From the IMG/VR virus record IMGVR_UViG_3300027744_000019, positions 2,295 through 66,294 of that record: a DNA stretch of 64,000 bases; one strand, written 5' to 3'. This document shows, piece by piece, positions 24,101-37,872 of this stretch. The DNA comes from a virus. Lineage: Duplodnaviria; Caudoviricetes. The stretch's first letter is position 1. Each line of letters starts with the position of its first letter. The notes below the pieces were generated by a model that saw only the letters and a list, made by a program, of their open reading frames with translations, ran no database searches and was not told the origin of the DNA. Made by a program: the position numbers and the translations under genes.

Positions 24101-24505
24101 GAGCGCATTGTTAAAGAAGGTATTCCATCAGAAGAATATGGGTCAAGAGTCATTACTAAATCTCTTGCATCTCAAGCTGCATGGGCAACTCAAGCCACTC
24201 CAGTTACTATAACTGCTATTGAAAAAAGTGGTGTAAAACTTCAAAAAGTTAATGGAACGGAGACTATTTTTCTTACCTTTGATCAACTAGAAAATAGCAC
24301 TGTAGAAAAACAAAAACTACCTACTATGAAAGACACAGAAACAGTTGTTGAGGTCACTCCTGAAGTTAAAGAGTTCTTATCTAAAGGAACTAATGCAGCA
24401 TCCGCATATGCTAAAACAGACATAGACAACTTAGAAGAAACTGTTAAGAATTCTAAACTTGAAGGTTTAGAAAATGATTTATTTAACCTAGAAATTTGTG
24501 AATAA
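18113..24505 (+). CDS. Large ejection-type protein with hydrophobic N-terminal segments, long coiled coil and inserted ADP-ribosyltransferase-like domain
   Basis: 2130 aa. Gly/Ala-rich hydrophobic stretch (FGYTAGIMTEAVAEFAAEALITGVTGGTTGGVLAA), EGIQENLQE motif and heptad-rich region at about 22300-23250. ART-like segment LFHGGPKFDKF...FSFSATPMTAINYA...AQEWII at 23612-23890. Confidence 0.6.
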   Translation: MASENNTDNFSALDSLGPQFGGINRPNIDIQSYKPFEGDRISMPEINFPTAGNYNSPIPSFDSIDRPNLSIEKNIVRPKGKTPRFEDIQSSLHDYGKSILQSNQDQNQYAKMYSYNAGSSGNSYYKRYAAYGQKKFDEIGFTPLRDNEAVFNERTTGWNDFTRMMQYSFFPLAWQGFKSAPKSLFKLLQGDLSGDTEDARLYEEAAGIGQSTKGGVGGFMNNALMNFGYTAGIMTEAVAEFAAEALITGVTGGTTGGVLAARTAANLQRIGKGFSKFTMLDKGGDLFRSSLQALGNSQNARNFYKAANSKVGQFFNPLTNTFEAVADVYKIGKFDNLSGLAALSKTAGGFYRDVKGINLALAEARLEGGMVQNSVYDSLYDKYYEKNGKAPSNEIQKAFEQQAKAASAETIAWNTALIYGSNKITFPNIINPKGGAGKFLRNATEDILEFKNAGKVVFQKAKDAAGKLTKGEFKYLDGSFKTYMETLKDVGFKTATKDFAIKGIKGSVGYFKSNVTEGIQENLQETIAGAMEGYYTDAFNNPAVRSYLYAQGSTTNAMRDKYSYFADKWAEENPFTEKGFETFASGFVMGMFAKPLNKSVEWLSLGYNKIFDAEAFEDYKEKKANYGKQVAAQLNALYSDPKQFFDSKIFNYATQNKIADIRNSGNKKQTLDAEDHALVSAVTSALQTNSIGFFRDNIAAVKEMTPEEIETEFGLEKGKGVEYQQRVDEVLTRVDKISERYEQMESRYPNPVDLSGYEKGTDAYKKAAIFSSAWDVAKANAIFMNESYDNARKRMDSIERTIRSQKPLSKMTDSEVQVLFNPSRLKNEAELLQSELDSQRDTLSPDEISKRERKIEAVKELKKAYDYYFKYNVIDKEAQIEKMRSQGLFDNQVDDEGNAIDPKELEAEARAEIDRQLRVKSKSEENTTRAEADLEVAYKEYLRSIANLNDEDYFDSKAEEAFELLMDNYRLGREANTLSSYVNMLHNPKSFTEHVERNYTWMQKLYDNRKDYYENLINQEIDLRELNTLLNKLADKNIFISADDAYEFQRNGTFPNEFFDATRKAVIREGHPDYDEYIDLFDKALRLKMQDPRTYARTLDDMLNAELINLDVELSREIEALPKSERVTKKGKLQLKNNLATIEELSEQLADGDYIDAKLVQGKDVSEITVYKDGNVLKLGDKNGEEITIDEFNGGFTSGDIYRVELKPDPVEVKKLENQYSERKQDVIRLNIQKLEDDVQLQQNEYVRFTVNSPYESMDPELQERLSNAFNSYIETDEKLIEQVSEMEDVEILNMLDDFIKTNKVAANIIEEYNIEKLDEAAQRLAEANGAPEIEFEGQTYDLETMDLSEVKDLAKKLKSQYDRLNKKPNSEKTNEEKETALRVKFTLDLVQRYITKNAEAEAIAKEETSSEETPVEEPQAEPAQSVEGINKDIKARRERAKKALAKRVALLTEKKNRLASDESAIKDTLKHLQELLDNSVELTGVQLEAAMGDAQQVTEMIKAIVDFKYKNRPKTRILKRDIKAQVEREFEFAKNTLAKIAELKADLKVVEANKKDLTNQINYYNNMIADPNLSILTRADIRQKISKLEKKLTTVEKLISILKNAISKSVAYLKEYLNVWNSRYKTMTDFQKKTGFKILSKDELGALIKSTNANSIAKADSYAGLKAQYDSLEQAVLETIDDVEFLEKVQDQERTRLSQLEAAADKYYDQIRYLYELLDDVAEDIVAKNTLEGATPGSPKAEATAATSEDFSGVTDVTDKTAPVATYSFVDAAETADLDDIVGPPSDIEAKKADIERRRQEELNKTFDNNKGALESQIENAVKSKGWAINNVLFHGGPKFDKFKREFFQTGEYSNVDMRRVAQSMGVRIPEGSFSFSATPMTAINYALTYGKNNPTLYIVNNTKAINAEELTGNAEKDAQEWIIDGDNISDIITVPLIPNADKINAKYDAELAALEESTQEGIQVVTEINPELRSMLNQMGYKNKTIDALPKSILERIVKEGIPSEEYGSRVITKSLASQAAWATQATPVTITAIEKSGVKLQKVNGTETIFLTFDQLENSTVEKQKLPTMKDTETVVEVTPEVKEFLSKGTNAASAYAKTDIDNLEETVKNSKLEGLENDLFNLEICE

Positions 24506-27500
24506 TGGCAATTACTTGCGCACTTGGTCCTAAACATATTGATGCATTAGCAAAAGCAATCTACAAAAAAATGTCAACGCTTCCTCAAGGGGAAGTTTTT
24601 GACATTAATGGGTATATGGATTATCTATACCAGAATATTGCAGAGAAGCAAGGTGTTGATAATGCATTACAATACATGCAACAGTTTCCGTACTTAGCTA
24701 ATATTATTGCAGCTAAGCTTATAGATGTTGTTGAGATTGACCCAAGTGTGAACTTAGGTGCTATGGCTAAAGCTTATAGAAATCCAGATACAGGATGGCA
24801 AGCAGTTAATGCTAGGTTCAATACTGAGCTTACTCCTGAAGCTATGGATGCTTTATCAGACTATGAAGCTAACACTCCATCACAAGAAGATTATGAGGAT
24901 GAGATTCCAGAACCAATTACAGAAGCTTCAGATGATAGATTAAAAGCAAGCACAGCTTTGTCCGGTACATTACAACAGTTTCTTACAAAGAACCCTAATG
25001 ATAAAGCTGAAGATGTAATTGAAACTCCAGATCCAAGTAAGACATATATTAAACTTACTATATCAAAGATTCAAAATATTGCAAAAGATTTAGCAATTGG
25101 TTCTACTATAAATTACCAAGGTAAATTTTTAAGATTAAAAGTTGTTAATCTTGCCTCAGTACCAAGAGATGAAAGAACTCCAGAGACAGATGCTCTTGTT
25201 GGTAGAATGATTGGTATCTCAGATGAGGAAACAAAAAAGAATGATGTTACTCCATTAAATCAGTTATTTGCTCTTGTGCTTACTGATGAAACAGGTAATA
25301 CAATATACTTTAATCAAAATGGAGATGTTACTACCAAACAAAACTTTGGTAAACCTGTGTATCAAATGATGCGGGATGTACGTTTCCAAAACAATAGATT
25401 TACAGTAAGAGACATTTACAATAAAGAAGATCAGATTATTAGTCCTAAAGATGAGGCTATTAATACAATTAGACTTATGGGATATAAATCTATATCTCAA
25501 TATGAGGCTAATGAAAATACTACATTTAAAGAGCTTATTGCTACTATTGATAAACAACAACAAACTCAGTTTAAACAACTATATGACCTTAAGCAACAAG
25601 CAATGAAGAGTAAGGCTCCTTTGTTATTTGTTACAGGAGCTAGTGTAGGGGTATTAAATGAAAGAGTTAAGCAAGATATTAATTTATCTGATGTTGCTGC
25701 AATGCAATCAGATGCAATCAATACTTTTTTAATACTTAATGAGCCTGCTTATGGTTTACGTTCTGGTACTGCCATTATTACTATAAATGGTGAAACATTT
25801 CCTGTTGATAGAACAGATATCCCTAAAGATGTTTCTGAGAAAATAGCACAAGTCTTACAGTCTCAAACTATTAGTAACAACGATAAAATTCTTTTCTACA
25901 ATCAGTTTTTTAATGATGAAGTAGTTAACTTAAAAACTGATAAAGAAAAACAAGATACTTCATTTGTAACTTCAACAAGAAGACATAAATTAGTTAAATC
26001 TAAATCCGGTAAACCATTTTTTGTTTATGCTGATTATACTTTAGCTGAGCTCAATGCTAATAAGCAATTAGTTAATAAAGTAAACTTTGTTCCATTAGAT
26101 GGTAGTCAACAAAGTATTGATAAGATTAAAGAAATTTTAAATGGAGGTAAGGCTTCTGTTAAAGATGGTAATGTAAAAAAGTTTGGTGCTAAACTAAACT
26201 ATATGAATAATAGATTAACTAGTGACTTCTATGACTATGTAGATGGTAAACTAGTTAAGTCTGGTACGTATAAAGATTTTCTTACAAGATTAAATCCTAA
26301 AATTTTAATTTCTAAAACTGCAGGGTTACCGTTATATAACTCATACATTAGATTTGCTATTCCTGATGCAAGATCTTCTCAAGTAAATAAAGCACAAGAA
26401 AGAGCTAAAGAAGATTCAAGATCAGCAGTACGTAAGTTTAAAGATAACATGGTTGAGGTCATTAAAGATGCTGAACCTAAAGCTATTAAAGTTAAAGTCA
26501 CTAATGTAATTGAAAAACAGTATGCTGATAAAAGACCAAGCACTTATAACTATGATGTTGTTATAGAAGGGCAAGAAGGCAAACATAGATTTTATGGTGC
26601 AAAATCAATAGTAAATATAGGAGATACTTATTACTTGACTGTAGAAGATGTTATAGATGGTGGTTTCTTATTTAAAGATACAGTTAAAGCTCGTGTAGAC
26701 TCAAAGAAGAGTGGTGCTCTTGATATGGGTTCACTTGGAGAAAGAGATTTTAAAACTGAAGATTCAAGAGGTATTCCAATTGAAACAGTTGCTGCAGCAG
26801 AAACAGAACAAGCTATAGAATTAGATGAAGTTACACCCGCACCTAATACATTGCCAGAGGATCAAGTTGAAGCTGACCAAGAAGAATATATTAATCCATC
26901 TAATACAACACAACCTTCAGATGGTTCTCCTGTATCAAGAAGATTTAAGAGAGACTATGGTAAATTTAAATTAGATAGATCTGCTGAGTTATCTAATGAA
27001 GTTACACAAGAGCAAATAGATGCTGCAACTACATGGTGGAATAATTCTCCGCTTTCTAAATTCATTTCATTAGAACATGTAGCAAACATTGTTAACTCTA
27101 ATGTATATGCAAGATTTATTGCAGCTGGTTCTGAGCTTCTTGCTGAACAAAATTTAGATGGTAAACTTGGTAAGATCCTTATCAATGAAGCTACTAAAGG
27201 TTCAATGGTAGACACTTACCATGAAGCATGGCACGTATTCTCTCAGTTATTCTTGACAAGAGAAGAGAAATTAAAATTATATAATGAGGTTAGAAATTCT
27301 GATCCTAAGTTTAAAAATCTATCTGCACGCGCTATTGAAGAAGTACTAGCAGAGGACTTTAGATCTTATGCTCTTTCTCCAAAAACTAAAAAAGGTGCCC
27401 CTGTAAGAAATACTTTATTTAGAAGAATACTTAATTTCTTGAAAAAGTTATTTACCGGGAAACAATCTTTAGCTAACCAAATACAACCACAGAAAATTTC

Positions 27501-30500
27501 TACCTATGGTGTAGCAGGAGAGTTGTTTAATAAACTATACTTTGCATCTAACAATCCAGAGTTACTTAATGATTATACTCCATTAGTTGACAATGTTCAA
27601 TGGGACATGCTTAACCGTGGGGTTAGACAACAAGGTGATTATAAAGAAGATGCTCTTAATGATAGAGACTCATTAGATCTTTCTAATGCATTAGATTCAT
27701 TAATCTCAGAAGAAATTGATAATGCTTATCTCTATACTAAAGAACATAATGGAGCTGATGCAAATAAGAGTGGTTCAATTAATATTCTTTTAAAGGATGA
27801 TAATAAAACTGTTCTGTATGAATTCTTAAAAGAAGAACTTCAGGATAGAGTTGATGCCATTAAGGATAAGCTTCCTGTTAAACCAGCTACTCCATTTAAT
27901 ACTTTAAACACTCTTGATAAAATTTCTAAAAATGCAATTGCTGTAATTAAGAATTCTAAAGGAGATGATGAATACTTTTTTCTTAGAACACAAATTGAAG
28001 ACTTTGACAATCTTAACCTAGACAGTAAAAAAGGTGAAAGAGTTAAAGGAGAGATTTACAAAGATGCAGAAGTTATTGGAGACTTTTATACTCACAAATC
28101 AATTAAGGGTGTAGATAAGACTCCTGCAAACATTGTTATTGTAAATAGTATTGAGGAAGCTAGAGCTCAGTTTGAAGCTTATAAAAATGATACAAATTAC
28201 ACTGAGATTATTGAGAACCCAAATGCGGGAACTACTCAACCAGATTTAGACTTTGCTGAACAACAAGATCTTGATAGATTAAGAATTTTCCAAACTGCTA
28301 TTAAAAACTGGAATAATGTAATTAAGTTTCACAAAGAACATTCAGACTTTAACATCATTAATAAAAAAGTTGCTTTACAAGAATCAGATCCAGAATCAAA
28401 TACTGAAGAAGCTAATAATGATAAGAATGAGGAAGGTGGAGAAAATTTTAACTCTAGCGTAGGGGATATTACTCTTCAACAGTTAGCTGATAATGAAGTA
28501 ATCTACATGCTCAAGAGTTTATTTGCTTTGAATAAAGCTGGTAACTATGAGTATGACAGACTTGGTTTCAAAAAGAGAGCAAGTTTTAAAAAGGTGTGGA
28601 ATGCACTTGTAAGATCAACTAACAGTGCCAAAGATCCACAGGAAATCTATAATAGAATACTTGCAGCATCTGCTACGTATCCTGAATTAAAGCAACTTGT
28701 AGACTATAAATTACCTAATCCAGAAGTTGAAGACCATAAGAATGGTACAAGCTTTAGTATTACTACTTCTTTTTGGAATGCATTTAGTCTTCCAAGAGTT
28801 AAGTATATACAATTACTTGTAAATGAAGATAAGTCAGGTACTACTACTGAGGTAACTAATACTTCAATGGATGTTGGTAGTACTAAAAGAAAGTTTACAA
28901 GTTTATTTAAAGCAGAGAAGCCAAATAAATTTATTACTAAAGATAAATTTAATAATAACATCTTAAATCTAAACGCTATTGTTCAAGAGTTTATGGCTCT
29001 TGATGGTACACTGAAAAGCGGTGACAATGCTGAATATAAATTCCTAAGAGCTATTGGATTTAAATATGATGATTTAGGTAAAATTAAAGAAACTTTAAGT
29101 AATCCAGCTAAACGTCAAGAATATAGTATTGCATTTTTATTTAAGGCTGTAAAAGAACTTCGTGATGCGCAGTCATCAGGTAATGCTACAGAAGAAGCTT
29201 GGAAAATAATTAATGCATTTAAGTCAAATCCAATTGAAACTTTATCTAAAGGTTTTCCAGCAGGTGTTGTCGGTGCACCTAATTCTGCTATTTATATAGA
29301 CGGTTTAAAATTAAGCACTGCTGTAAGTAGACTTATTGAGTTGCAAAATAAGTACGGAGCAACAAGTTCTAATTTCAGTGTACTTAATGCAGCTAAGAAA
29401 AGAGTTAATGAGCATACTACTGATAACACATTAACAGTAATTGTTGACGCTCTTAATACTGCTAAAAATAAAACTGATCTATTTAAGCAAGGATCTATTA
29501 CAAGTTACTTAGACCCAAGAAGAAATCCTTGGACTAATAATCTTCAAACATTTAATACATTGTTTGATGCAAGTAATAAAAAGAGAGAAGGTAGATCAAT
29601 TGCAGTTGAAATGTCATCCGGTACTCAAATATCTGGTAAAGATGGTACAACTACAACAGATCTAGATCCAAGAAGTAAATTCATTCAAGAGTTTCATACC
29701 ATGCTTAAGTCTGGTATACAAGAAATTCTTAGACCTGGATCTAAGTCATCTTCATTTGGATGGAGAATAGATGGTGGTATTGAGTTTCCAGGTATTGGTA
29801 AAAAAGATGATAAACATCTTTATATTGATTTAGACACATTCCTCAATCTTAATGATGAGTTAGATGCTATTGAAAAGATAATTCTTCCGTATGTATCATC
29901 TGAAGTAGCTAGAATTAACATCTTTAAAACCAATCCAGAAGCTAAAAACTATATTGGATATAACAAACCTGGCAGAGATGGTAAGCCATCTGGAGAACAG
30001 TTTAATTATTTTGATGGTATATTAACTGATACAACTAAAAAAGAAATTCTATCTAAAGTAAATACAACTGAGATAGATCTTTTAAACTACATCACTACTG
30101 ACCCAGCACTTAAAGAAAAAATTCTTAAGGAAACTCAAAGTTATTTTGAAGCTAAGTCTAAAAAGCTTTATGACTATTTACAAGAAGCTAAATACGTTGA
30201 TCCTAAATTAATGGAAAGATTTAATCTTCCTGGGTTCACTGCAGCACAGAAAGAAAATCTTTTGATGAAGGGTTATATGTATAACTCATGGATTCATAAT
30301 CTAGAGACATCAGTTATATTCTATGGTGATATTGCACAATATGATCATCCTAAACAAGGCTTTCATAAAAGAACTTCCGGTTTAATTTCTAATGGTCGTA
30401 GAGTTAGAACTGATGTTGCTGCTATTAGATATATTAATGAGCAATTTAATGCAAATGGTAAAACCTATGCATCTACACTCCCAGAAAAGTATAATAAATT

Positions 30501-33500
30501 TACATATGATGGCTCATTAAATACTGCAGTAATCCAAGAGATTAGAAGAGATAGTGTTTATCTAGATGATATTAGAGAAGGTCTTACAAAGTTCTATACT
30601 GAAAGAACAAACATGTCTGCCGATGAAGTTAAAAAAACAGTAGATCGTGAAGTAAAAAAATATACTAAAGAAGAAATTAAAGAAGGTGATGGTCAAGGTT
30701 ATATTACATTTGATGCCTATAGAACATTAAAGAGACTTCAGAATAAGTGGGGTGATGAACAAGAAAATTTATTTCAAAAGATTATAAATGGTGAACCTAT
30801 TACAGAACCAATTGATGAATTTTTTCCTGCATATAAATTACAAAACTTTGCATTCTTAGATAATACAGTATTACCAGTAACAGCCTTTCATAAGTTTGCA
30901 TTGTTCCCATTAATTCCTGGTGTAATTAAACCAGGTAGTGATTTTGATAAGATGCATAAGAGAATGTTAGAAGAAAACATTCAGTATCTAACATTTGATT
31001 CAGGTTCTAAAGTTGGCACACTCACTTCAGATGGTGAGCCAGATAGAGCTCATGATGAGAACGGAAGATTTAATGAGTCTGTAGTATTTACTAAAAATAC
31101 ATTTAATGCTGGCTTCCTTAAAGAAGTAACTAATGTGCCTAAAAAGTATAAAGGTAAAGTTGTATTCTCTACACAGTTAAGAAAACTTATTCTTGATGGT
31201 TTATATGAGGAAGGTGCAATGACCATGCCTCAGTATTCTGGGCTAGTTAAAGCATATGAAAATAGTGTAGCATTTAACACTGAGTTGCTCAAAACTGAAC
31301 TAATGGAAGAGATTGGTTATGTAGAAGGTAAAGGTGTTACACAACCAGAAAAGTTCTTAAAAGTAATTAAGGAGAACTTAAGAAGAAAAGATTATCCTGA
31401 ACATTTACTTAGATCTCTTAAAACAAATAGGGACGGTTCATTAAAGTATGACTTGTCTTACTTCTTAGATGCTAAGACAATTGAAGATACTATAATGTCA
31501 ATTGTAGAGAAGAAGTTTGTACGCCAAAAAGTTAAAGGTGAAGCACTTGTACAAGTTGCAAGTTCATTTACCAATAATATGTGGACAACTCCTTCTGAAG
31601 AAGATGTTAAGAAATATATGGGTAGTAATACACTACCTTTTTATTATCCAGGTAAAGATGGCAAAACAAATGCAATGAAAGTTGCTATTGCTATGCAAGG
31701 TGACTTCTTTAAACTATACAATCTTAATCATAATGATGGTCAACCAATTGGAGATATTAATAGGTTAAATGATATGATCAAGAATGATCAGTGGTTAGAT
31801 ACTGATGGTAATAGAAAAGCAATTACTATGACTGCTGTACGTATTCCTGTACAGGGTCTTAACTCTATGGAGTTCATGGAAGTCTATGAATTCTTAGATC
31901 CAGCTGCAGGCTCTCATATTTTTGTACCTACAGAACTTGTAGCTAAGTCAGGTGGTGACTTTGACGTAGACAAGTTAACTACATTTATGCCTAATATAGG
32001 TGAGGATGGTAAAGCTATTACTTCTAATATGACTAAAGAGCAATTCTTTGATGCATATAATAAGGCTTCTAAAGAAGACAAAAAAGAAATGATGAAGCTG
32101 CAGAAGAAAGCTGTTGAAAATAGTTTTATTGAAAACATTAGAGGTATTCTTGAAATTCCTGAAAACTTTGCTTCTTTAGTTAGACCTAATGATACAGCAC
32201 TACTTGAAGAATTATCAAAAGAACTTGAAGATAAAGTAAGTGACTTTGATAAGTATGAAAAAGTAAATGGCGAATCTACAAACTTAGATGGTAAAGGTGA
32301 AAAAATGATTAGCCCTACTACTGTACTTGAGCAAAGATACAATGTAGCTAAACACGGACATAATATTATTGGTAAATCAGTATTAGGTATTGGTGCTAGT
32401 GAGAATGCAATGAATCCTGTATTTAATCAAGCAGGTGTTATTCTACCTAAAAAATATAAAGCTTCAAATTATGATAAAGATTTAGGTAAATTTGTAGAAT
32501 TTGGGGAACCTATATATGACATGAGACTTTTCATGCCGCACAACAAAACTAAAGACGGTAATATTTCTCTTTCTAATATTTATGGTGTTGATGGAGTAAC
32601 TAGAATTGCTGATTTATTTTCACAAGGTATAAATGGTTGGGTTGACGTAGAAGCAAATGAATGGATATTTTATATTCAAGGTAATTATGAGCTTGCACCA
32701 ACTATGCTTTATTTATTTAAATCTGGTGTAACTGAAGAATATGCAGTTAAGTTTGTATCATCTCCATTCATTAGAGAATATGCTGAAGAGTTAAGAAAAA
32801 TTCAAGGGCCGTTTGCTAAATCAATGGGTATAGCAGCAAAAGAAAAACCATATGAAAGATACGAAGCTACTAAAAGAGTTATACAAAGGCACATGCTGCA
32901 ATACCTCAATGCTTCTACTTCTATGCTACAAGCTAATGATCAAATCACAGTATATTTTAAAGAAAGAACTAAAAGAGGATGGGAAGATATTCCTTATCAA
33001 ATGACTTATGGTGAGTTACAAAATAACATAAACAACTCTACATATGATCTAAATTCAATTTCCACAATAGATATTAATTTACCAGGAATTCAAAGAACTC
33101 TTTACGTTAAACCATCTGCTGAGAATGCAACTTATTACAATTCAACATCAAAAGCTAATGAACGGTATGAGAATGGATATTCTCTTGAGTTAATGAATAG
33201 CCTTATTGATAAGAAACCTAGTGAGTTTAACGCTAATGAGACTATAGCTGCTATGGGAATGCTTTTACATTTTAATGAAATTCAAAAGCAAATCCAAGGT
33301 GTAGGTAGGATGAAAAGAAGAGGTAAACCAGACACAACTCTTTTCAGAAACATTCAAGAAATTATTTTAAGAGACCTTGATATAGAATCCTTAGATAACG
33401 ATAGTAAAGTAGATAAAGCATCTAAGGATAAAATCTTTAATGAAAGTATTACAAGTTCATTAGGAGATAAGAAAATTATTGTTGATGTAGTTTCACAAAT

Positions 33501-36500
33501 GCTTGTTCTTAGAAATGGTAACCAAACAACAAACTATATACAAGGGCTTTTAACAAATGCTAAAAACAAAGGTTTAATAGGTGCAAAATTTGGGAAAACT
33601 AATGATGGAATGGTAAATTTTGTTGATGCATTTAAAAACAATATCAGCAACTTTATCTTACAAAACTACTTATCTAACTTTATTGACCCTAAAGGGAACA
33701 TTGTAAAAATTCCTCAGGAGTTTAATGAGATGCCAGTCAAGCTATCTAAGAATCTTTCAACAGATGTTGAGATAAAAGATGGTGTGGTATATGTAAACTC
33801 ACAAAATCTTAGAGAAGACTTTTCTAATAAGAGTTATTTAGATACAGCGCAAGGTCCTAGAAGCTATGCTCAAAGACCAGGACTTGAACCATTTAAAATA
33901 GAACAAGATCCGTTTGCATCTGAAGAAGCATATATCAAGTATGCTATGATCAGAGCATCTTTACAAAGTCAAGGGCTTACGGGAGCTGAGTTAAATAAAA
34001 CAGCTCTTATTGAAGCATTCAACTTTAATGCATTGATGAGAAATAATGATTACTCATATACTAATGAAGTAATTGATGTGATTCAAAAGTATCCTAAGCT
34101 TATTATTGATTTCCCTATCCTAGAACAGATATCTATTTTAAGCACGTCTGCATTTACTGACTTTAATGTTCTTACACTTACTGACAGAGATGCAATAGAT
34201 GGTAAGACAAAAGATGTTTATGCAAATAACATTAGAGCTTTAGGTAATCCTAGAATTCAAAAAGTAGCTGACCCTAAAGAGAATCAAAGAATCAGTAATC
34301 TATTCCAAATGCTTCCTTTGGTAGCAGTGTATCAACACGGTGTGGGTTCTACTCTATATGGATTTGATCAAGTTCTTCCACAAGATATGATCCAGTCTAC
34401 AATGCAGAATGCATCTAATTTATTTAAACTTAACTATTGGAATGATAAAGGCTTAAGTCATGTATTTAATTCTACAGTTAATAAGGAGGAGAAACAATTT
34501 AAAAACTTTGTTTTAACTGAAGCAGAACTAGGTACAGAAGCACCAATACGTGCAACATTTGCTGAGGTAGATCCATTTGAAGAAATAGATAATGAACCGT
34601 TCTTTGCACCTCAACTACAAACAACACCAACTTTAACAAGTTATACAAATCATTCTGGCGGTGCAATTGGAGCAGATACAGTATGGGATAACATTGGTAA
34701 ACAATTTGGAATGGTAACCAATAGACATTATTGGATGAATAATAAAACTCCAAATGGTAATGTTGAAATTTCTAAAGAAGATGCAATTGAAGGTCAGCAA
34801 AAAGTAACTGAAGCTGCAAGAGCAATGGGTAGAATTGAACCTACCTATCAGGTTAGAGATGAAAGATTGATTAGAAACTGGTCTCAAGTTAAATATTCTG
34901 ATGCTGTATTTGCAATAACAACTATGTTAGGTGTAGATGCTGAAATGAATTATGGTAAAAAAGCTAAAATTAGACAAGGTAAAGGAGGCACAGGTTATGC
35001 TATTGAAATGGCAATACAAGCTGGTAAACCTGTTTATGTTTTTGACCAAGAAAGAAAAATGTGGTTTAAAAATATTGATGGTCAATGGTCTGAATCTGAT
35101 GTACCTACTCTTACTAAAAACTTTGCCGGTATAGGCACAAGAGAAATTAATGAAGCAGGTAAACAAGCTATCAGAGATGTCTATGCTAAAACATTAGCTG
35201 AAACACAACCTACACAGCCAATAGATGATCAAACACAAATTGAAACTAAAGCTACAGACCAATACAGATACTTTGGTTCTATGTATACTATTAAGTTACA
35301 AGATGGTATTGGTGTAGATGTAGAAGGTTACAAAGGTAAAGCAGCTGCTAAAGCTAAATTGCTTAATGCATACAATACTGATCCAAATGTAGACCCACAA
35401 AATGGTAGAGCATTTAGAGAAACTCCTACACAGTTAGATGTTCAATCTCAAAACTCTGCAGACACATTTGTATTTGCAGATGGTATTTCTATTAGTGTTC
35501 CGTTCCAACTTAATGCTGAACAACAAGCAGCACTATACAAACTAGAAGACTTCTATAATAACCCAGGAGCTTATGATAATGAAATTACATTATCAGGATA
35601 CGCAGGAACAGGTAAGACAACTATTCTTGGAATCTTTGATAAGTATTTAAAAGAGAAGAGTTACGTTAAACCTATCTATACTTCACCTACTCACCGTGCT
35701 AATGCGGTAACTAAGATGAAGAATCCTAGAGCTAAGGTTAAAACATTACACTCTTTGTTTGGTCTTAACCCTATGCTTAATCTTGAGGGAGACGCATTAG
35801 ATATTAGAGATGTTAAAACTGAATCTTTCAGAAAGCCAGAACTTAACAGAAGAGATGTTATTATTGTAGATGAATCTTCTATGGTTACAAATGAGTTGTA
35901 TGATTTAATTCAGCAGTTCAAAAAAGAGTTAGACCTTAGAATTATTTTTGCAGGAGACAAAGGTCAGCTTGGACCAGTTCAAGATAATACTAAATTAGAA
36001 TCTAAAGTATTTGATGACCCTAAGAATCAAGCTCAACTTACTAAAGTAGAAAGAACGGGTGACAATCCTATCTTATTAAACTCAACTAGAGCAAGAGAAG
36101 GTCAGGACTTTACTTATGTCACTGAAGAAATTAATGGTAATGGTGTAGAGTTCTTAGATACTCCTGATAGATTAAACCAAGTTATGGGTCAGAATCTAAA
36201 AGATATGCAGGAATCTGGTAATATGCTTTACTTTAGAATCCTTTCTTCTCTTAATAAAGATGTAGCTAGAATCAATTTACAAGCTAGAGATATTATGTTT
36301 GGTGAGGAAGCTAAAAAGACTCCTTACATTAAAGGTGATATCTTAATGGGCTATGATAATATTGGTGAAGACTTAATTAACTCAGGTGACTATGTTGTTG
36401 AAGCTGTATCAGAGCTAACTGATATTAAAGTTAGAGTACCTGTTGCTGATTTATCATCTGGATATTTAAAATTCGGAAAAGAAAAAGAAGTATCACTTAA

Positions 36501-37872
36501 AGGTTACTATGTAACTGTTAAAGATATTCTTAATCCTGATAATTTATTTTTAATACCTCTTCCTGCAGAAGGTAATGATGAAGCTCTTACTGAAATTGCA
36601 AAAGGATTATTAGAACTCAAAAGCTATTATCCAAGAGTACAAGGTAAAGACAAAGGCAGACTATTCTCAGAAATTAGTTCTGTAAGCAATCAAATTGTAT
36701 TCAATAAAGACATTAAAGAAAACGGTAGATTCCTTGCTAAGAAAGGTATAGACTATGGTTATGCTCATACTATTCACAAATCTCAAGGAGGAACGTACAA
36801 CAAAGTACTCATCTTTGACGATAGTATCTCAAGCCTAGCAGCAGCTATTGCAGACAAGAGAAAGCTTGGTATGAATGGTCAAAAATTAATGAAAGACCAA
36901 CTCAAGTATGTCGCAATCTCTAGAGCTAGTGAATATGCATATGTGTACAACAGTAAAGATACTGCGGTAGGGGGATTTGATTTCAGAGGTGAGGCACCAG
37001 CAAATATCACTGAGGCAGATATGGATACAGCAGCAGTTGCATCGTTCTCATTTGCTACTGAACAAACTCCAACTCCACAGGTTCAGACTAAGGGAGAGAT
37101 AGAAATGCGCTCAGATAATGTTACTAAAATATTCAGCGGTAACAAGACTGTGACAAATAGAACAAGTCTTATTAATGATGGTAAGTATACAATTAAAGGT
37201 TCTACTGATGTAGTTGAGCTTAAGTATATAGGTAAATCAACAATCAATGGTAATCAAGTTACAATCGTCAATGAAAAGACTAATGCAGTAACTACTAGAA
37301 CTCTTGACCAACTTGCAAAAGCTGAAGGATTCAAAGACGCGGCAGACTTTAGAGCTAACAATAAGTTTAGCACTAACTATCTGAACGGTACTCAGACTAG
37401 ATTTCTTTACCAAGTATCTCCTGTATCTGCGGTATCTGCAGATGCTGAGGCTACCTCAGGTAAAATTCCTGAAACTAACACAGACCTTCAAGACTTTAGA
37501 GATGCAGTTGCTAAAAATAACAACATCTTCCCTAACAAGGTTACTACATCTGCAGGTAGACTTTATGTTCTTAATTCAGATGGATTATATAACTTAGTGG
37601 ATAGTTTAAGCGGAACTGTATTAATGAAGAATATTGACTTAACTACTGGTCAAGTTGGTTTACCAAGTAACATAAATGTCCCTGCAACTAATGCATACAA
37701 AATAGAGTTACTTAACCAAATCCAAGTATTAAAACAACAATATCAATTAGAAGACTTATTAGGTCAATATGGTTATGATATTAAAGACTTGATTGATACA
37801 ATTCAAAATGCTACTACCAAAGACCAAGTTGATGATGTTGCTTCACTTATTAATGAAAAAATCTGTAAATAA
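24505..37872 (+). CDS. Giant virion RNA polymerase polyprotein: zincin HExxH + two-barrel RNAP + SLOG + SF1B (Dda/RecD-like) helicase + ASCH
   Basis: Zincin: HEAWH (27220-27234) with EEVLAEDFR downstream. RNAP: KRTSG (30367), GDGQGY (30685), RIPVQGLNS (31840), GGDFDVDK catalytic motif (31951-31974). SLOG-like: HSGGAIGAD...GGTGYA...FAGIGTR (about 34650-35200). Helicase: GYAGTGKT (35596-35619), VDESSMV, GDKGQLGPV, YAHTIHKSQG, YVAISRA (to about 36930). ASCH-like: IFSGNKTVTNR...AKAEGF (about 37095-37420). Confidence 0.88.
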   Translation: MAITCALGPKHIDALAKAIYKKMSTLPQGEVFDINGYMDYLYQNIAEKQGVDNALQYMQQFPYLANIIAAKLIDVVEIDPSVNLGAMAKAYRNPDTGWQAVNARFNTELTPEAMDALSDYEANTPSQEDYEDEIPEPITEASDDRLKASTALSGTLQQFLTKNPNDKAEDVIETPDPSKTYIKLTISKIQNIAKDLAIGSTINYQGKFLRLKVVNLASVPRDERTPETDALVGRMIGISDEETKKNDVTPLNQLFALVLTDETGNTIYFNQNGDVTTKQNFGKPVYQMMRDVRFQNNRFTVRDIYNKEDQIISPKDEAINTIRLMGYKSISQYEANENTTFKELIATIDKQQQTQFKQLYDLKQQAMKSKAPLLFVTGASVGVLNERVKQDINLSDVAAMQSDAINTFLILNEPAYGLRSGTAIITINGETFPVDRTDIPKDVSEKIAQVLQSQTISNNDKILFYNQFFNDEVVNLKTDKEKQDTSFVTSTRRHKLVKSKSGKPFFVYADYTLAELNANKQLVNKVNFVPLDGSQQSIDKIKEILNGGKASVKDGNVKKFGAKLNYMNNRLTSDFYDYVDGKLVKSGTYKDFLTRLNPKILISKTAGLPLYNSYIRFAIPDARSSQVNKAQERAKEDSRSAVRKFKDNMVEVIKDAEPKAIKVKVTNVIEKQYADKRPSTYNYDVVIEGQEGKHRFYGAKSIVNIGDTYYLTVEDVIDGGFLFKDTVKARVDSKKSGALDMGSLGERDFKTEDSRGIPIETVAAAETEQAIELDEVTPAPNTLPEDQVEADQEEYINPSNTTQPSDGSPVSRRFKRDYGKFKLDRSAELSNEVTQEQIDAATTWWNNSPLSKFISLEHVANIVNSNVYARFIAAGSELLAEQNLDGKLGKILINEATKGSMVDTYHEAWHVFSQLFLTREEKLKLYNEVRNSDPKFKNLSARAIEEVLAEDFRSYALSPKTKKGAPVRNTLFRRILNFLKKLFTGKQSLANQIQPQKISTYGVAGELFNKLYFASNNPELLNDYTPLVDNVQWDMLNRGVRQQGDYKEDALNDRDSLDLSNALDSLISEEIDNAYLYTKEHNGADANKSGSINILLKDDNKTVLYEFLKEELQDRVDAIKDKLPVKPATPFNTLNTLDKISKNAIAVIKNSKGDDEYFFLRTQIEDFDNLNLDSKKGERVKGEIYKDAEVIGDFYTHKSIKGVDKTPANIVIVNSIEEARAQFEAYKNDTNYTEIIENPNAGTTQPDLDFAEQQDLDRLRIFQTAIKNWNNVIKFHKEHSDFNIINKKVALQESDPESNTEEANNDKNEEGGENFNSSVGDITLQQLADNEVIYMLKSLFALNKAGNYEYDRLGFKKRASFKKVWNALVRSTNSAKDPQEIYNRILAASATYPELKQLVDYKLPNPEVEDHKNGTSFSITTSFWNAFSLPRVKYIQLLVNEDKSGTTTEVTNTSMDVGSTKRKFTSLFKAEKPNKFITKDKFNNNILNLNAIVQEFMALDGTLKSGDNAEYKFLRAIGFKYDDLGKIKETLSNPAKRQEYSIAFLFKAVKELRDAQSSGNATEEAWKIINAFKSNPIETLSKGFPAGVVGAPNSAIYIDGLKLSTAVSRLIELQNKYGATSSNFSVLNAAKKRVNEHTTDNTLTVIVDALNTAKNKTDLFKQGSITSYLDPRRNPWTNNLQTFNTLFDASNKKREGRSIAVEMSSGTQISGKDGTTTTDLDPRSKFIQEFHTMLKSGIQEILRPGSKSSSFGWRIDGGIEFPGIGKKDDKHLYIDLDTFLNLNDELDAIEKIILPYVSSEVARINIFKTNPEAKNYIGYNKPGRDGKPSGEQFNYFDGILTDTTKKEILSKVNTTEIDLLNYITTDPALKEKILKETQSYFEAKSKKLYDYLQEAKYVDPKLMERFNLPGFTAAQKENLLMKGYMYNSWIHNLETSVIFYGDIAQYDHPKQGFHKRTSGLISNGRRVRTDVAAIRYINEQFNANGKTYASTLPEKYNKFTYDGSLNTAVIQEIRRDSVYLDDIREGLTKFYTERTNMSADEVKKTVDREVKKYTKEEIKEGDGQGYITFDAYRTLKRLQNKWGDEQENLFQKIINGEPITEPIDEFFPAYKLQNFAFLDNTVLPVTAFHKFALFPLIPGVIKPGSDFDKMHKRMLEENIQYLTFDSGSKVGTLTSDGEPDRAHDENGRFNESVVFTKNTFNAGFLKEVTNVPKKYKGKVVFSTQLRKLILDGLYEEGAMTMPQYSGLVKAYENSVAFNTELLKTELMEEIGYVEGKGVTQPEKFLKVIKENLRRKDYPEHLLRSLKTNRDGSLKYDLSYFLDAKTIEDTIMSIVEKKFVRQKVKGEALVQVASSFTNNMWTTPSEEDVKKYMGSNTLPFYYPGKDGKTNAMKVAIAMQGDFFKLYNLNHNDGQPIGDINRLNDMIKNDQWLDTDGNRKAITMTAVRIPVQGLNSMEFMEVYEFLDPAAGSHIFVPTELVAKSGGDFDVDKLTTFMPNIGEDGKAITSNMTKEQFFDAYNKASKEDKKEMMKLQKKAVENSFIENIRGILEIPENFASLVRPNDTALLEELSKELEDKVSDFDKYEKVNGESTNLDGKGEKMISPTTVLEQRYNVAKHGHNIIGKSVLGIGASENAMNPVFNQAGVILPKKYKASNYDKDLGKFVEFGEPIYDMRLFMPHNKTKDGNISLSNIYGVDGVTRIADLFSQGINGWVDVEANEWIFYIQGNYELAPTMLYLFKSGVTEEYAVKFVSSPFIREYAEELRKIQGPFAKSMGIAAKEKPYERYEATKRVIQRHMLQYLNASTSMLQANDQITVYFKERTKRGWEDIPYQMTYGELQNNINNSTYDLNSISTIDINLPGIQRTLYVKPSAENATYYNSTSKANERYENGYSLELMNSLIDKKPSEFNANETIAAMGMLLHFNEIQKQIQGVGRMKRRGKPDTTLFRNIQEIILRDLDIESLDNDSKVDKASKDKIFNESITSSLGDKKIIVDVVSQMLVLRNGNQTTNYIQGLLTNAKNKGLIGAKFGKTNDGMVNFVDAFKNNISNFILQNYLSNFIDPKGNIVKIPQEFNEMPVKLSKNLSTDVEIKDGVVYVNSQNLREDFSNKSYLDTAQGPRSYAQRPGLEPFKIEQDPFASEEAYIKYAMIRASLQSQGLTGAELNKTALIEAFNFNALMRNNDYSYTNEVIDVIQKYPKLIIDFPILEQISILSTSAFTDFNVLTLTDRDAIDGKTKDVYANNIRALGNPRIQKVADPKENQRISNLFQMLPLVAVYQHGVGSTLYGFDQVLPQDMIQSTMQNASNLFKLNYWNDKGLSHVFNSTVNKEEKQFKNFVLTEAELGTEAPIRATFAEVDPFEEIDNEPFFAPQLQTTPTLTSYTNHSGGAIGADTVWDNIGKQFGMVTNRHYWMNNKTPNGNVEISKEDAIEGQQKVTEAARAMGRIEPTYQVRDERLIRNWSQVKYSDAVFAITTMLGVDAEMNYGKKAKIRQGKGGTGYAIEMAIQAGKPVYVFDQERKMWFKNIDGQWSESDVPTLTKNFAGIGTREINEAGKQAIRDVYAKTLAETQPTQPIDDQTQIETKATDQYRYFGSMYTIKLQDGIGVDVEGYKGKAAAKAKLLNAYNTDPNVDPQNGRAFRETPTQLDVQSQNSADTFVFADGISISVPFQLNAEQQAALYKLEDFYNNPGAYDNEITLSGYAGTGKTTILGIFDKYLKEKSYVKPIYTSPTHRANAVTKMKNPRAKVKTLHSLFGLNPMLNLEGDALDIRDVKTESFRKPELNRRDVIIVDESSMVTNELYDLIQQFKKELDLRIIFAGDKGQLGPVQDNTKLESKVFDDPKNQAQLTKVERTGDNPILLNSTRAREGQDFTYVTEEINGNGVEFLDTPDRLNQVMGQNLKDMQESGNMLYFRILSSLNKDVARINLQARDIMFGEEAKKTPYIKGDILMGYDNIGEDLINSGDYVVEAVSELTDIKVRVPVADLSSGYLKFGKEKEVSLKGYYVTVKDILNPDNLFLIPLPAEGNDEALTEIAKGLLELKSYYPRVQGKDKGRLFSEISSVSNQIVFNKDIKENGRFLAKKGIDYGYAHTIHKSQGGTYNKVLIFDDSISSLAAAIADKRKLGMNGQKLMKDQLKYVAISRASEYAYVYNSKDTAVGGFDFRGEAPANITEADMDTAAVASFSFATEQTPTPQVQTKGEIEMRSDNVTKIFSGNKTVTNRTSLINDGKYTIKGSTDVVELKYIGKSTINGNQVTIVNEKTNAVTTRTLDQLAKAEGFKDAADFRANNKFSTNYLNGTQTRFLYQVSPVSAVSADAEATSGKIPETNTDLQDFRDAVAKNNNIFPNKVTTSAGRLYVLNSDGLYNLVDSLSGTVLMKNIDLTTGQVGLPSNINVPATNAYKIELLNQIQVLKQQYQLEDLLGQYGYDIKDLIDTIQNATTKDQVDDVASLINEKICK

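What the first reader, a model, noticed from the sequence alone, without database searches (positions are those of the whole stretch)
34640..37420. SLOG and ASCH domains flank the helicase in the RNAP tail: a nucleotide/RNA-processing accessory arm
Seen: a SLOG-like block (HSGGAIGAD...RNWSQV..SDAVFAI...GGTGYA...KPVYVFDQ...FAGIGTREI) before the helicase and an ASCH-like block (KIFSGNKTVTNR...LAKAEGF..AADF) after it. Known: SLOG proteins (DprA/YpsA/LOG) bind ssDNA or process nucleotides and appear in NAD-linked conflict systems; ASCH domains bind RNA and include an N4-acetylcytidine amidohydrolase. Inferred: together with the ART insert in the upstream gene, the virion carries a set of polyvalent effectors that protect unwound DNA or nascent RNA, or counter nucleotide-signal defences.
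Basis: partly seen in the sequence, partly recalled or inferred. Interest (0 to 1): 0.7.

Follow-up and report, generated by a model that had tools for sequence, protein, structure and literature searches.

The report
Swappable SLOG and fixed ASCH domains
The giant RNA polymerase of an uncultured crAss-like phage, probably carried in the particle, ends in a DNA helicase flanked by a SLOG nucleotide-binding domain, which related phages swap like a cassette, and a conserved YqfB-type ASCH enzyme domain; this is a sound example of an injected multi-tool protein, not a new kind of system.

Summary

**SLOG.** Residues 3380-3562 of the 4455-aa ORF (24505-37872) fold as a SLOG Rossmannoid domain (AF2 pLDDT 97.5). 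The closest solved structure is the cpYpsA-type protein 3imk (Z 12.9).

**ASCH.** Residues 4195-4308 fold as an ASCH barrel (pLDDT 87.7). The closest structure is E. coli ac4C amidohydrolase YqfB (Z 9.9). The YqfB-type catalytic octapeptide G-x-K-x-x-T-x-R is intact.

**The two domains behave differently.**
- SLOG is a cassette. DNA homology to the nearest relative (92-95% nt) stops at 34615 and resumes at 35210.
- In relatives the same slot holds two unrelated cassettes, an ART-PolyVal domain, or nothing.
- Copies of the SLOG 70-85% identical sit in otherwise about 40%-identical giants, in about 950 standalone protein clusters, and inside the non-homologous N4-type virion RNAP of Klebsiella phage Pylas.
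- ASCH travels with the helicase and a 143-aa C-tail.

**Reading.** The tail is a polyvalent effector arm. SLOG is an optional module that probably acts on NAD/ADP-ribose-derived nucleotides. The helicase-ASCH unit is fixed and acts on single-stranded nucleic acid. Functions and packaging are inferred, not shown.

This scan has already found similar cassettes on crAss-type polymerases in other genomes. I found no paper describing them.

The parts
24505..37872 (+). 4455-aa giant ORF, a crAss-type virion RNA polymerase polyprotein. Motifs: HEAWH at aa 906, DGQGY at aa 2062, DFDVD at aa 2485.
   Evidence: The DFDxD motif of crAss-like virion RNAPs is described in bioRxiv 10.1101/2020.03.07.982082. 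No sequence-level PDB hit to the polymerase part.
34616..35209 (+). SLOG cassette with its Thr/Pro/Gln-rich linkers. This stretch has no DNA homology to the nearest relative.
   Evidence: blastn breakpoints against L002 (92-95% nt identity on both sides) and L003; alignments A4 and A5.
34642..35190 (+). SLOG domain core, aa 3380-3562, closest to cpYpsA. Family-invariant residues: G3385, G3386, A3387, G3389, D3391, R3457, Q3461, G3494-G3497, R3546.
35221..35499 (+). Conserved module of about 90 aa that precedes the helicase in relatives (38-92% identity; 38-69% in the distant ones). No family assignment.
35500..37044 (+). SF1B helicase of the Dda/RecD2/Pif1 type, with an intact Walker A motif (GYAGTGKT) and the DESSM and HKSQG motifs.
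37087..37428 (+). ASCH domain, aa 4195-4308, YqfB-like.
37138..37161 (+). ASCH octapeptide GNKTVTNR, aa 4212-4219. K4214, T4217 and R4219 correspond by motif to YqfB K21, T24 and R26. The probable acid is E4274 in AKAEGF.
37441..37869 (+). 143-aa C-terminal tail, conserved together with the ASCH domain, which ends 147-151 aa from the C-terminus in the whole proteins of the clade. No family hit.

Best explanation
The last 1090 residues of this crAss-type virion RNA polymerase form a polyvalent effector arm built from two kinds of parts.

**1. A hot-swap slot.** It lies between the polymerase body and the helicase, and in this phage it holds a cpYpsA-like SLOG domain.
- The domain is an optional, horizontally exchanged module with a strictly conserved polar pocket.
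- It most likely binds or cleaves a nucleotide derived from NAD or ADP-ribose, such as a host immune signal, as soon as the protein enters the cell with the DNA.

**2. A fixed unit.** It consists of a 90-aa module, a 5'-3' SF1B helicase, a YqfB-type ASCH domain and a 143-aa C-tail.
- The ASCH domain keeps the Lys/Thr/Arg octapeptide of N4-acylcytidine amidohydrolases.
- It probably acts on, or reads, cytosines in the single-stranded nucleic acid that the helicase produces.

**Shown:** the folds, the motif conservation, the cassette exchange and the architectures in relatives.
**Inferred:** packaging and injection, the ligand, catalysis, and any coupling between helicase and ASCH.
For: **Folds.**
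- SLOG: pLDDT 97.5, Z 12.9 to 3imk over 129 residues at rmsd 2.6 A.
- ASCH: pLDDT 87.7, Z 9.9 to YqfB.

**Cassette behaviour of the slot.**
- P0004 and P0005 are 98% identical to this protein just upstream of the slot and 93-94% identical in the helicase. They have no SLOG and carry two different, mutually unrelated inserts.
- P0006 and P0011 have an empty slot.
- The DNA breakpoints are sharp, at 34615 and 35210.
- P0027 has Pfam ART-PolyVal (32.5 bits against a cut-off of 31.2) in the same slot.
- The insert of the nearest relative resembles Phage_30_3/NADAR clusters in the ESM Atlas (0.89, a lead only).

**Mobility of the SLOG domain.**
- It is 70-82% identical to SLOG domains in giants whose helicase is about 40% identical or absent.
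- It is only 37% identical to the SLOG of P0003, whose tail is otherwise 90% identical.
- An 80% nt-identical copy ends a different protein in L005.
- Standalone genes reach 75% identity over a whole 192-aa protein (up to 84% in clusters from contigs of about 1 kb).
- A complete copy sits at aa 983-1160 of the N4-type virion RNAP of Klebsiella phage Pylas (217 bits).

**Link to NAD/ADP-ribose.**
- P0014 reads helicase-SLOG-NADAR.
- About 49 of the 120 listed giants carry both this SLOG family and Pfam NADAR.
- PMC9503650 predicts that viral YpsA-clade SLOG domains sense or degrade cADPR-type signals, and notes sporadic fusions to SF1 helicases.

**ASCH.**
- 64 of 72 readable homologous domains have G-K-T-R and one has G-K-S-R, at 26-57% overall identity in the distant representatives.
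- In YqfB, Lys21, Thr24 and Arg26 are essential and T24S is active (PMC6972931).
- The G-K-T-R and G-K-E-R octapeptide classes are described in bioRxiv 10.64898/2026.02.27.708502.
Against: - No experiment or proteome shows that this tail is packaged or injected. Even the polymerase identity rests on motifs and gene context.
- The SLOG domain misses Pfam cpYpsA entirely, and family members reach only E 1e-4.
- No ThsA-type cADPR-binding SLOG appeared in the top 50 structural matches, so the ligand is a guess.
- Genomic contexts of standalone homologues are mixed: next to NAD synthetase in Atu_ph07, but next to gp46/47-type recombination nucleases in Cr30.
- Seven ASCH homologues have lost the Thr or Arg (GKIK, GKLS and others), so catalysis is not universal.
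- One close variant scores above the Pfam cut-off for DUF669 (22.8 bits).
- The ASCH acid residue (E4274) was assigned by motif, not by a residue-level structural alignment. hhalign against YqfB gave nothing.
Confidence: 0.5

Rival explanations
1. The whole tail is a helicase-coupled repair or de-modification arm for nucleic acid. The helicase feeds single strands to base-processing domains: ASCH as an N4-deacylase, AlkB and NADAR in relatives, and SLOG as an N-glycosidase or reader of modified nucleotides within the polymer. These would reverse host-imposed marks on the entering genome or on early RNA. It would be analogous to the eukaryotic ASCC3 helicase, TRIP4 (ASCH) and ALKBH3 set.
For: - Helicase-SLOG-AlkB in P0022 and helicase-SLOG-NADAR in P0014.
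- ASCH is fixed next to the helicase.
- The ASCC3-ASC1 structure 8alz appears among the ASCH matches (Z 4.8).
- All 19 ASCH proteins tested in the 2026 preprint deacetylate tRNA ac4C.
Against: - SLOG cassettes also occur without any helicase: at the C-terminus of giants such as P0085, P0086 and P0110, in L005, in the N4-type vRNAP, and in about 950 standalone protein clusters.
- No substrate mark is known for these phages or their hosts.
- The ASCC analogy comes from my own knowledge and was not tested here.
Confidence: 0.2
2. The SLOG block is a DprA-like single-stranded-DNA binding or recombination-mediator domain, as PHROG-based annotation names it. It would coat and protect the strand displaced by the adjacent helicase. 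This was one of the first reader's options.
For: - phrog_768 'DprA-like', E 3e-10.
- DprA structures match at Z 5.3-6.3.
- The domain lies directly upstream of the helicase.
- In Caulobacter phage Cr30 the standalone homologue follows the gp46/47-type recombination nucleases.
Against: - The best fold match is cpYpsA at Z 12.9, twice the DprA score.
- Pfam DprA reaches only E 0.009 in 7 of 53 family members.
- The nearest relatives keep the same helicase (93-94% identity) without the domain.
- The domain also occurs far from, or without, a helicase.
Confidence: 0.1
3. The ASCH domain is a non-catalytic nucleic-acid grip (PUA-like or DUF669-like) that helps the helicase or polymerase hold RNA or ssDNA. 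The SLOG domain is an inert spacer retained for packaging.
For: - Seven ASCH homologues lack the Thr or Arg.
- DUF669 hits the L003 variant at E 1e-4.
- PUA, YTH and EVE binding domains appear lower in the fold list.
Against: - 65 of 72 homologues keep a nucleophile-competent octapeptide despite low overall identity.
- The SLOG family has 21 invariant columns, including polar and charged residues (D, R, Q, T and further nearly invariant ones), across 53 diverse sequences and exists as a standalone protein. An inert spacer would not show this.
Confidence: 0.1

Closest known systems
Polyvalent proteins of phages and conjugative elements, including N4-type virion RNAPs fused to zincin, ART, lysozyme and PBECR domains (Iyer et al. 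2017, PMC5512222)
   Same: - A giant protein in the block of giant ORFs.
- An HExxH motif (HEAWH at aa 906).
- A polymerase core plus a variable set of small effector domains.
- ART-PolyVal in the same slot of a relative.
   Different: - The polymerase is the crAss two-barrel type, not the T7-like N4 type.
- SLOG, ASCH and an SF1B helicase are not among the domains that paper lists: the words SLOG, ASCH and crAss do not occur in it.
- Packaging is not shown here.
Viral YpsA-clade SLOG domains and their sporadic fusions to SF1 helicases (Iyer, Burroughs, Anantharaman and Aravind 2022, PMC9503650)
   Same: - A SLOG domain in a phage protein next to an SF1 helicase, and next to NADAR in relatives.
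- The same predicted role in sensing or degrading ADP-ribose-derived signals.
   Different: - Here the fusion sits inside a virion RNA polymerase.
- The domain behaves as an exchangeable cassette.
- The family is not captured by any Pfam SLOG model.
cpYpsA / 'putative molybdenum carrier' protein 3imk (Pfam PF12694)
   Same: Best structural match: Z 12.9, rmsd 2.6 A, 129 aligned residues, 20% identity. Weak PF12694 hits in 6 of 53 family members.
   Different: The window's own domain gets no PF12694 hit even at E 10. It is a sister family of about 190 aa with its own motifs: RNWxQV, KPVYVFDQ and FAGIGTR.
E. coli YqfB, an N4-acetylcytidine amidohydrolase (ASCH; PDB 9kyf; PMC6972931)
   Same: - Best structural match: Z 9.9, with 92 of 102 residues aligned.
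- The same G-x-K-T-[IV]-T-x-R octapeptide.
   Different: - 14% identity.
- It is a domain of a 4455-aa protein, not a 103-aa monomer.
- YqfB His70 has no obvious counterpart.
- Activity is untested.
Cellulophaga phage phi14:2 gp66 virion RNAP (Drobysheva et al.; bioRxiv 10.1101/2020.03.07.982082)
   Same: A crAss-like, virion-packaged large protein with the DFDxD catalytic motif. DFDVD is present here.
   Different: From my own knowledge, gp66 is 2180 aa and has no SLOG-helicase-ASCH tail. No sequence-level match was obtained.

Membership tests
SLOG superfamily (SMF/DprA-LOG Rossmannoid) | [quoted passage not shown] | tested here: met
   AF2 pLDDT 97.5. VIA-align top ranks are 3imk Z 12.9, 1rcu 6.5, DprA 6.3 and 6.0, MCP 5.8, YpsA 5.8, ShosA 5.4 and LOGs.
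SLOG superfamily (SMF/DprA-LOG Rossmannoid) | Gly-rich loop after strand 1 with a conserved polar or acidic residue (SGGxxGxD), plus a second GGxG loop | tested here: met
   HSGGAIGAD at aa 3383-3391 and GGTGYA at aa 3494-3499. G, G, A, G, D and GGTG are invariant in 53 sequences.
cpYpsA (Pfam PF12694) | Match to the Pfam model at or above its gathering score | tested here: not met
   No hit for the window's domain at E up to 10. Six of 53 family members hit weakly, best E 1.3e-4. A relative, P0062, carries a true PF12694 domain (42.2 bits).
DprA (Pfam PF02481) | Match to the DNA_processg_A model; ssDNA binding | tested here: not met
   No Pfam hit. Seven of 53 members hit at E 0.009 or weaker. 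Fold Z is only 5.3-6.3. ssDNA binding cannot be tested with these tools.
LOG phosphoribohydrolases | PGGxGTxxE motif with a catalytic Glu | tested here: not met
   The family consensus is GGTGYAVQMAI, and the Glu position is not conserved. LOG structures score Z 4.4-4.7.
ASCH (Pfam PF04266) | PUA-like beta-barrel fold matching solved ASCH proteins | tested here: met
   The top 19 Foldseek hits are all ASCH. VIA-align: YqfB Z 9.9, PH0355 8.4, 3s9x 8.3, 1t62 7.9.
ASCH (Pfam PF04266) | Octapeptide G-x-K-x-x-[T/E]-x-R | tested here: met
   GNKTVTNR at aa 4212-4219. G-K-T-R in 64 of 72 readable homologues. The motif is defined in the paper read.
ASCH (Pfam PF04266) | Pfam model at or above the gathering score (21.2 bits) | tested here: not met
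   17.3 bits, E 0.008. It is a divergent subfamily with only 79 representatives among 1.84 billion proteins.
YqfB-type amidohydrolases | Hydrolysis of N4-acylcytidine through a Lys-Thr-Glu triad with an Arg oxyanion hole | not testable with these tools
   K4214, T4217, R4219 and a probable E4274 are present by motif. No residue-level structural alignment was available, and hhalign failed.
Polyvalent virion proteins (Iyer et al. 2017) | Large multidomain protein whose domain set varies between related elements | tested here: met
Polyvalent virion proteins (Iyer et al. 2017) | Packaged in the particle and delivered with the DNA | not testable with these tools
   Inferred from the literature on crAss-like virion RNAPs and from the gene's place in a run of giant co-directional ORFs.

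The most novel reading that the evidence does not exclude
One SLOG family has been recruited independently by two non-homologous virion RNA polymerases, the crAss two-barrel type and the N4 T7-like type, because it must be present at the moment of DNA entry to destroy or soak up a host alarm nucleotide. Separately, the conserved helicase-ASCH pair would be an injected 'eraser' that strips N4-acyl or similar marks from single-stranded phage DNA or host RNA. That would be a prokaryotic-virus counterpart of the eukaryotic ASCC helicase/ASCH/AlkB repair set.
Probability: 0.15. Interest if true: 0.8.

Novelty: new variant of a known kind. Interest (0 to 1): 0.5.

Why it matters
**What it shows.**
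- crAss-like phages are among the most abundant gut viruses, and how they survive the first minutes of infection is poorly known.
- Their virion polymerase has a defined slot where near-identical phages carry different small enzyme domains. This points to a fast-evolving, pre-made counter-defence or repair kit.
- The slot gives a natural set of isogenic-like variants to compare.

**What it offers for follow-up.**
- The SLOG family is large (about 950 clusters of standalone proteins), has no Pfam model and has a confident structure model. It is a concrete candidate for a phage enzyme or sponge against NAD-derived immune signals.
- The ASCH domain is a candidate virion-borne ac4C-type amidohydrolase.

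**Limits.**
- Fusions of this general kind, namely polyvalent proteins and SLOG-helicase fusions, are already described.
- This scan has met the same theme in several other genomes.

Tried and rejected
**Searches that found nothing or too little.**
- Direct Pfam and NCBIfam scans of the SLOG block found nothing.
- Sequence and profile searches of the PDB found nothing for SLOG or ASCH, and nothing for the polymerase body.
- Foldseek alone was weak for SLOG (3imk at E 0.089). VIA-align was needed.
- hhalign of the giant-protein alignment against E. coli YqfB gave no ASCH alignment, so catalytic residues were mapped by motif only.
- Megablast of the tail against the phage collection gave no match, and tblastn of the ASCH block gave no match.
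- The word-indexed search found no standalone ASCH relatives. The exhaustive search found 79 representatives, about half of them giants of over 2000 aa and the rest shorter proteins, many probably fragments.
- The search for related loci with a tail alignment added only one new relative.

DNA of the 40%-identity relatives could not be fetched, so their ASCH regions were aligned through whole-protein ids instead.

**Ideas tested and dropped.**
- Compositional signs of recent acquisition: cassette GC is 0.34 against 0.32-0.34 in the flanks, so no signal.
- DUF669 as the identity of the ASCH block: rejected in favour of ASCH on fold evidence.

**Slot inserts of relatives.** They have no PHROG match at the default cut-off (best E 0.0011) and no Pfam match reaching its gathering score. 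The ESM Atlas gave a NADAR/GP30.3 lead for one and nothing for another.
Full report
**Anatomy.** The window is part of a 66-kb fragment of an uncultured crAss-like phage. Its + strand carries a run of giant co-directional ORFs.
- The finding lies in the last quarter of the largest ORF, 24505-37872, which encodes 4455 aa.
- This ORF carries a zincin-like HEAWH at aa 906, DGQGY at aa 2062 and DFDVD at aa 2485.
- DFDxD is the catalytic motif of the virion-packaged RNA polymerase found in all crAss-like phages (bioRxiv 10.1101/2020.03.07.982082; PMC7886860).
- I could not link the polymerase body to a solved structure by sequence. The 'RNAP' label therefore rests on motifs and context.

| Tail part | Residues | Window coordinates |
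|---|---|---|
| SLOG block | 3366-3572 | 34600-35220 |
| Conserved 90-aa module | 3573-3665 | 35221-35499 |
| SF1B helicase | 3666-4180 | 35500-37044 |
| ASCH block | 4181-4312 | 37045-37440 |
| C-tail | 4313-4455 | 37441-37869 |

**Observation.**
- The helicase is unambiguous: Pfam AAA_30 E 3e-18, phrog_325 'Dda-like' E 3e-72, T4 Dda 3upu E 2e-11.
- Neither flanking block is found by Pfam at its thresholds. SLOG gets no hit at all. ASCH gets PF04266 at 17.3 bits against a cut-off of 21.2.

**SLOG block.**
- PHROGs places it in phrog_768, 'DprA-like', at E 3e-10.
- A word-indexed search found 951 clusters of standalone proteins, those listed mostly 175-260 aa. Of the 120 listed, 116 carry no precomputed Pfam domain.
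- An alignment of 53 of them (A1) shows invariant HSGGAxGAD, RNWxQV, GGTGYA and FAGIGTR motifs.
- Individual members hit the SLOG-related Pfam models Nuc_deoxyrib_tr, DprA, cpYpsA and LDcluster4, but only weakly.
- AlphaFold2 on A1 gave pLDDT 97.5 and pTM 0.92.
- Foldseek was weak, with 3imk at E 0.089.
- The exhaustive VIA-align search put the cpYpsA-type protein 3imk alone at the top: Z 12.9, rmsd 2.6 A, 129 residues. Below it came only SLOG members: TM1055, DprA three times, MCP, YpsA, ShosA and LOGs.
- The block is therefore a SLOG domain, closest to cpYpsA. It belongs to a large sister family that Pfam does not model.

**ASCH block.**
I checked that the sub-alignment is clean.
- AlphaFold2 gave pLDDT 87.7.
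- The first 19 Foldseek matches are all ASCH proteins: ZmASCH, YqfB, PH0355, 3s9x, TTHA0113, EF3133 and EOLA1.
- VIA-align gives YqfB Z 9.9 (92 of 102 residues, rmsd 2.3 A), PH0355 8.4, 3s9x 8.3 and 1t62 7.9. PUA, YTH and EVE folds come lower.
- The segment GNKTVTNR (aa 4212-4219) is the ASCH octapeptide in its YqfB form, G-K-T-R. In YqfB, Lys21, Thr24 and Arg26 are essential and T24S stays active (PMC6972931). The G-K-T-R and G-K-E-R classes are set out in a 2026 preprint.
- An exhaustive phmmer search found only 79 representatives of this subfamily in 1.84 billion proteins. About half are giants of over 2000 aa and the rest are shorter proteins, many probably fragments.
- Of 72 homologous domains where the octapeptide could be read, 64 have G-K-T-R, one has G-K-S-R and seven deviate. 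Most also keep A-[KRQ]-x-E-G-F.
- Such conservation, at 26-57% overall identity in the distant representatives, argues for selection on the active site. My assignment of E4274 as the acid is by motif only (one search failed).

**The two domains behave differently in relatives.** I mapped the six tail segments onto 119 related giants.
- ASCH and the C-tail occur together with the helicase throughout one clade. In its whole proteins the ASCH domain ends 147-151 residues from the C-terminus.
- SLOG does not follow the backbone.
  - P0004 and P0005 are 98% identical just upstream and 93-94% identical in the helicase, yet they lack it.
  - In its place they carry two different, mutually unrelated inserts of 158-171 aa.
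  - P0006 and P0011 have an empty slot.
  - P0007 and P0009 have further inserts.
- At the DNA level, homology to the nearest relative (L002, 92-95% nt) ends at 34615 and resumes at 35210, inside Thr/Pro/Gln-rich linkers.
- The window's SLOG is 70-82% identical to SLOG domains in giants whose helicase is about 40% identical or absent. It is only 37% identical to the SLOG of P0003, whose tail is otherwise 90% identical.
- An 80% nt-identical copy forms the C-terminus of a different protein in L005.
- The other cassettes are mobile in the same way.
- In P0027 the same slot holds a Pfam ART-PolyVal domain.
- The insert of L002/P0005 resembles GP30.3/NADAR clusters in the ESM Atlas (score 0.89, a lead only).
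- Elsewhere the SLOG domain follows the helicase and is followed by NADAR (P0014) or AlkB (P0022).

**Outside Crassvirales.** tblastn against 50,697 phage records found the family in several places.
- It occurs as standalone genes of large phages.
- It occurs in crAss giants that RefSeq labels 'DprA-like DNA recombination-mediator protein'.
- It occurs inside the virion RNA polymerases of two Schitoviridae.
  - In Klebsiella phage Pylas it is complete, at aa 983-1160, scoring 217 bits against the A1 profile with all motifs intact.
  - In Alteromonas phage PT15-A5 it has lost the Gly-rich motifs.
- N4-type virion polymerases are T7-like and unrelated to the crAss type. The same small domain has therefore been attached to two different injected polymerases.
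- The polyvalent-protein paper lists zincin, ART, lysozyme and PBECR for N4-type RNAPs, but not SLOG.

**Interpretation.**
- The SLOG block behaves as an optional, exchangeable payload and not as a partner of the helicase. This argues against the 'protects unwound DNA' option and against the DprA-like label.
- Its slot-mates (ART-PolyVal and a possible NADAR) and its neighbours (NADAR) point to NAD/ADP-ribose chemistry. PMC9503650 predicts the same for viral YpsA-clade SLOG domains and mentions sporadic SF1-helicase fusions.
- The ligand remains a guess. No ThsA-type SLOG appeared among the top structural matches, and the contexts of standalone homologues are mixed.
- The helicase-ASCH-C-tail unit is stable, and its ASCH looks catalytically competent. 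The simplest model is an enzyme or reader acting on single strands made by the helicase.
- A broader 'de-modification arm' model is a live rival. It would place ASCH, AlkB and NADAR on a ssDNA translocase.

**Novelty and context.**
- I found no paper in the held library on SLOG or ASCH domains in crAss-type virion polymerases.
- The general ideas are published: polyvalent proteins and SLOG-helicase fusions.
- This scan has already reported swappable SLOG, ASCH, AlkB and NADAR cassettes on crAss-type polymerases in other genomes. I read those notes only after my own analysis, and they agree with it.
- What this locus adds:
  - A very clean natural experiment: three or more near-identical backbones, one slot, different cassettes, and sharp DNA breakpoints.
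  - The link to the N4-type polymerase of a cultured Klebsiella phage.
  - The count showing that the YqfB-type active site is conserved.

Noticed in passing
window 27220-27234 (aa 906-910): An HEAWH (HExxH) motif lies in the N-terminal third of the giant ORF. It recalls the zincin metallopeptidase module always fused to N4-type virion RNAPs in polyvalent proteins. No Pfam hit, and the fold was not tested.
   Followed up: partly
window 35221-35499: A module of about 90 aa (YRYFGSMYTIKLQDG...NGRAFR) precedes the helicase in this protein and in many relatives (38-92% identity; 38-69% in the distant ones). It has no Pfam, PHROG or NCBIfam match.
   Followed up: partly
window 37441-37869: The 143-aa C-terminal tail is conserved together with the ASCH domain and has no family match. 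By analogy with the N4 vRNAP C-terminal domain it could be an encapsidation signal. This analogy is from my own knowledge and was not tested.
   Followed up: no
L003:12005-12400: In a relative whose flanks are about 90% identical, the ASCH segment is only 69% identical and scores above the Pfam cut-off for DUF669. The 'fixed' part therefore also shows local mosaicism.
   Followed up: partly
L004:10607-11332 (relative P0002): In this relative the SLOG cassette is followed by a further 242-aa insert before the helicase module. The insert has only chance-level PHROG matches (E 0.01 or weaker) and no Pfam match, so slots can hold two cassettes in tandem.
   Followed up: partly
L019 (Alteromonas phage vB_AemP_PT15-A5 RNAP, aa 1094-1252): The SLOG copy inside this N4-type virion RNAP has lost the HSGGAxGxD and GGTG motifs. 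It appears to be a decaying cassette.
   Followed up: partly
L018 (CrAssphage cr113_1, gene KNV54_gp38): A 4328-aa giant gene is annotated in RefSeq as 'DprA-like DNA recombination-mediator protein' solely because of this roughly 180-aa domain near its C-terminus. The product name is misleading.
   Followed up: partly
L023 (Agrobacterium phage Atu_ph07) and L022 (Caulobacter phage Cr30): Standalone members of the SLOG family lie one gene away from NAD synthetase in the jumbo phage Atu_ph07. In Cr30 the member lies directly after gp46/47-type recombination nucleases.
   Followed up: no
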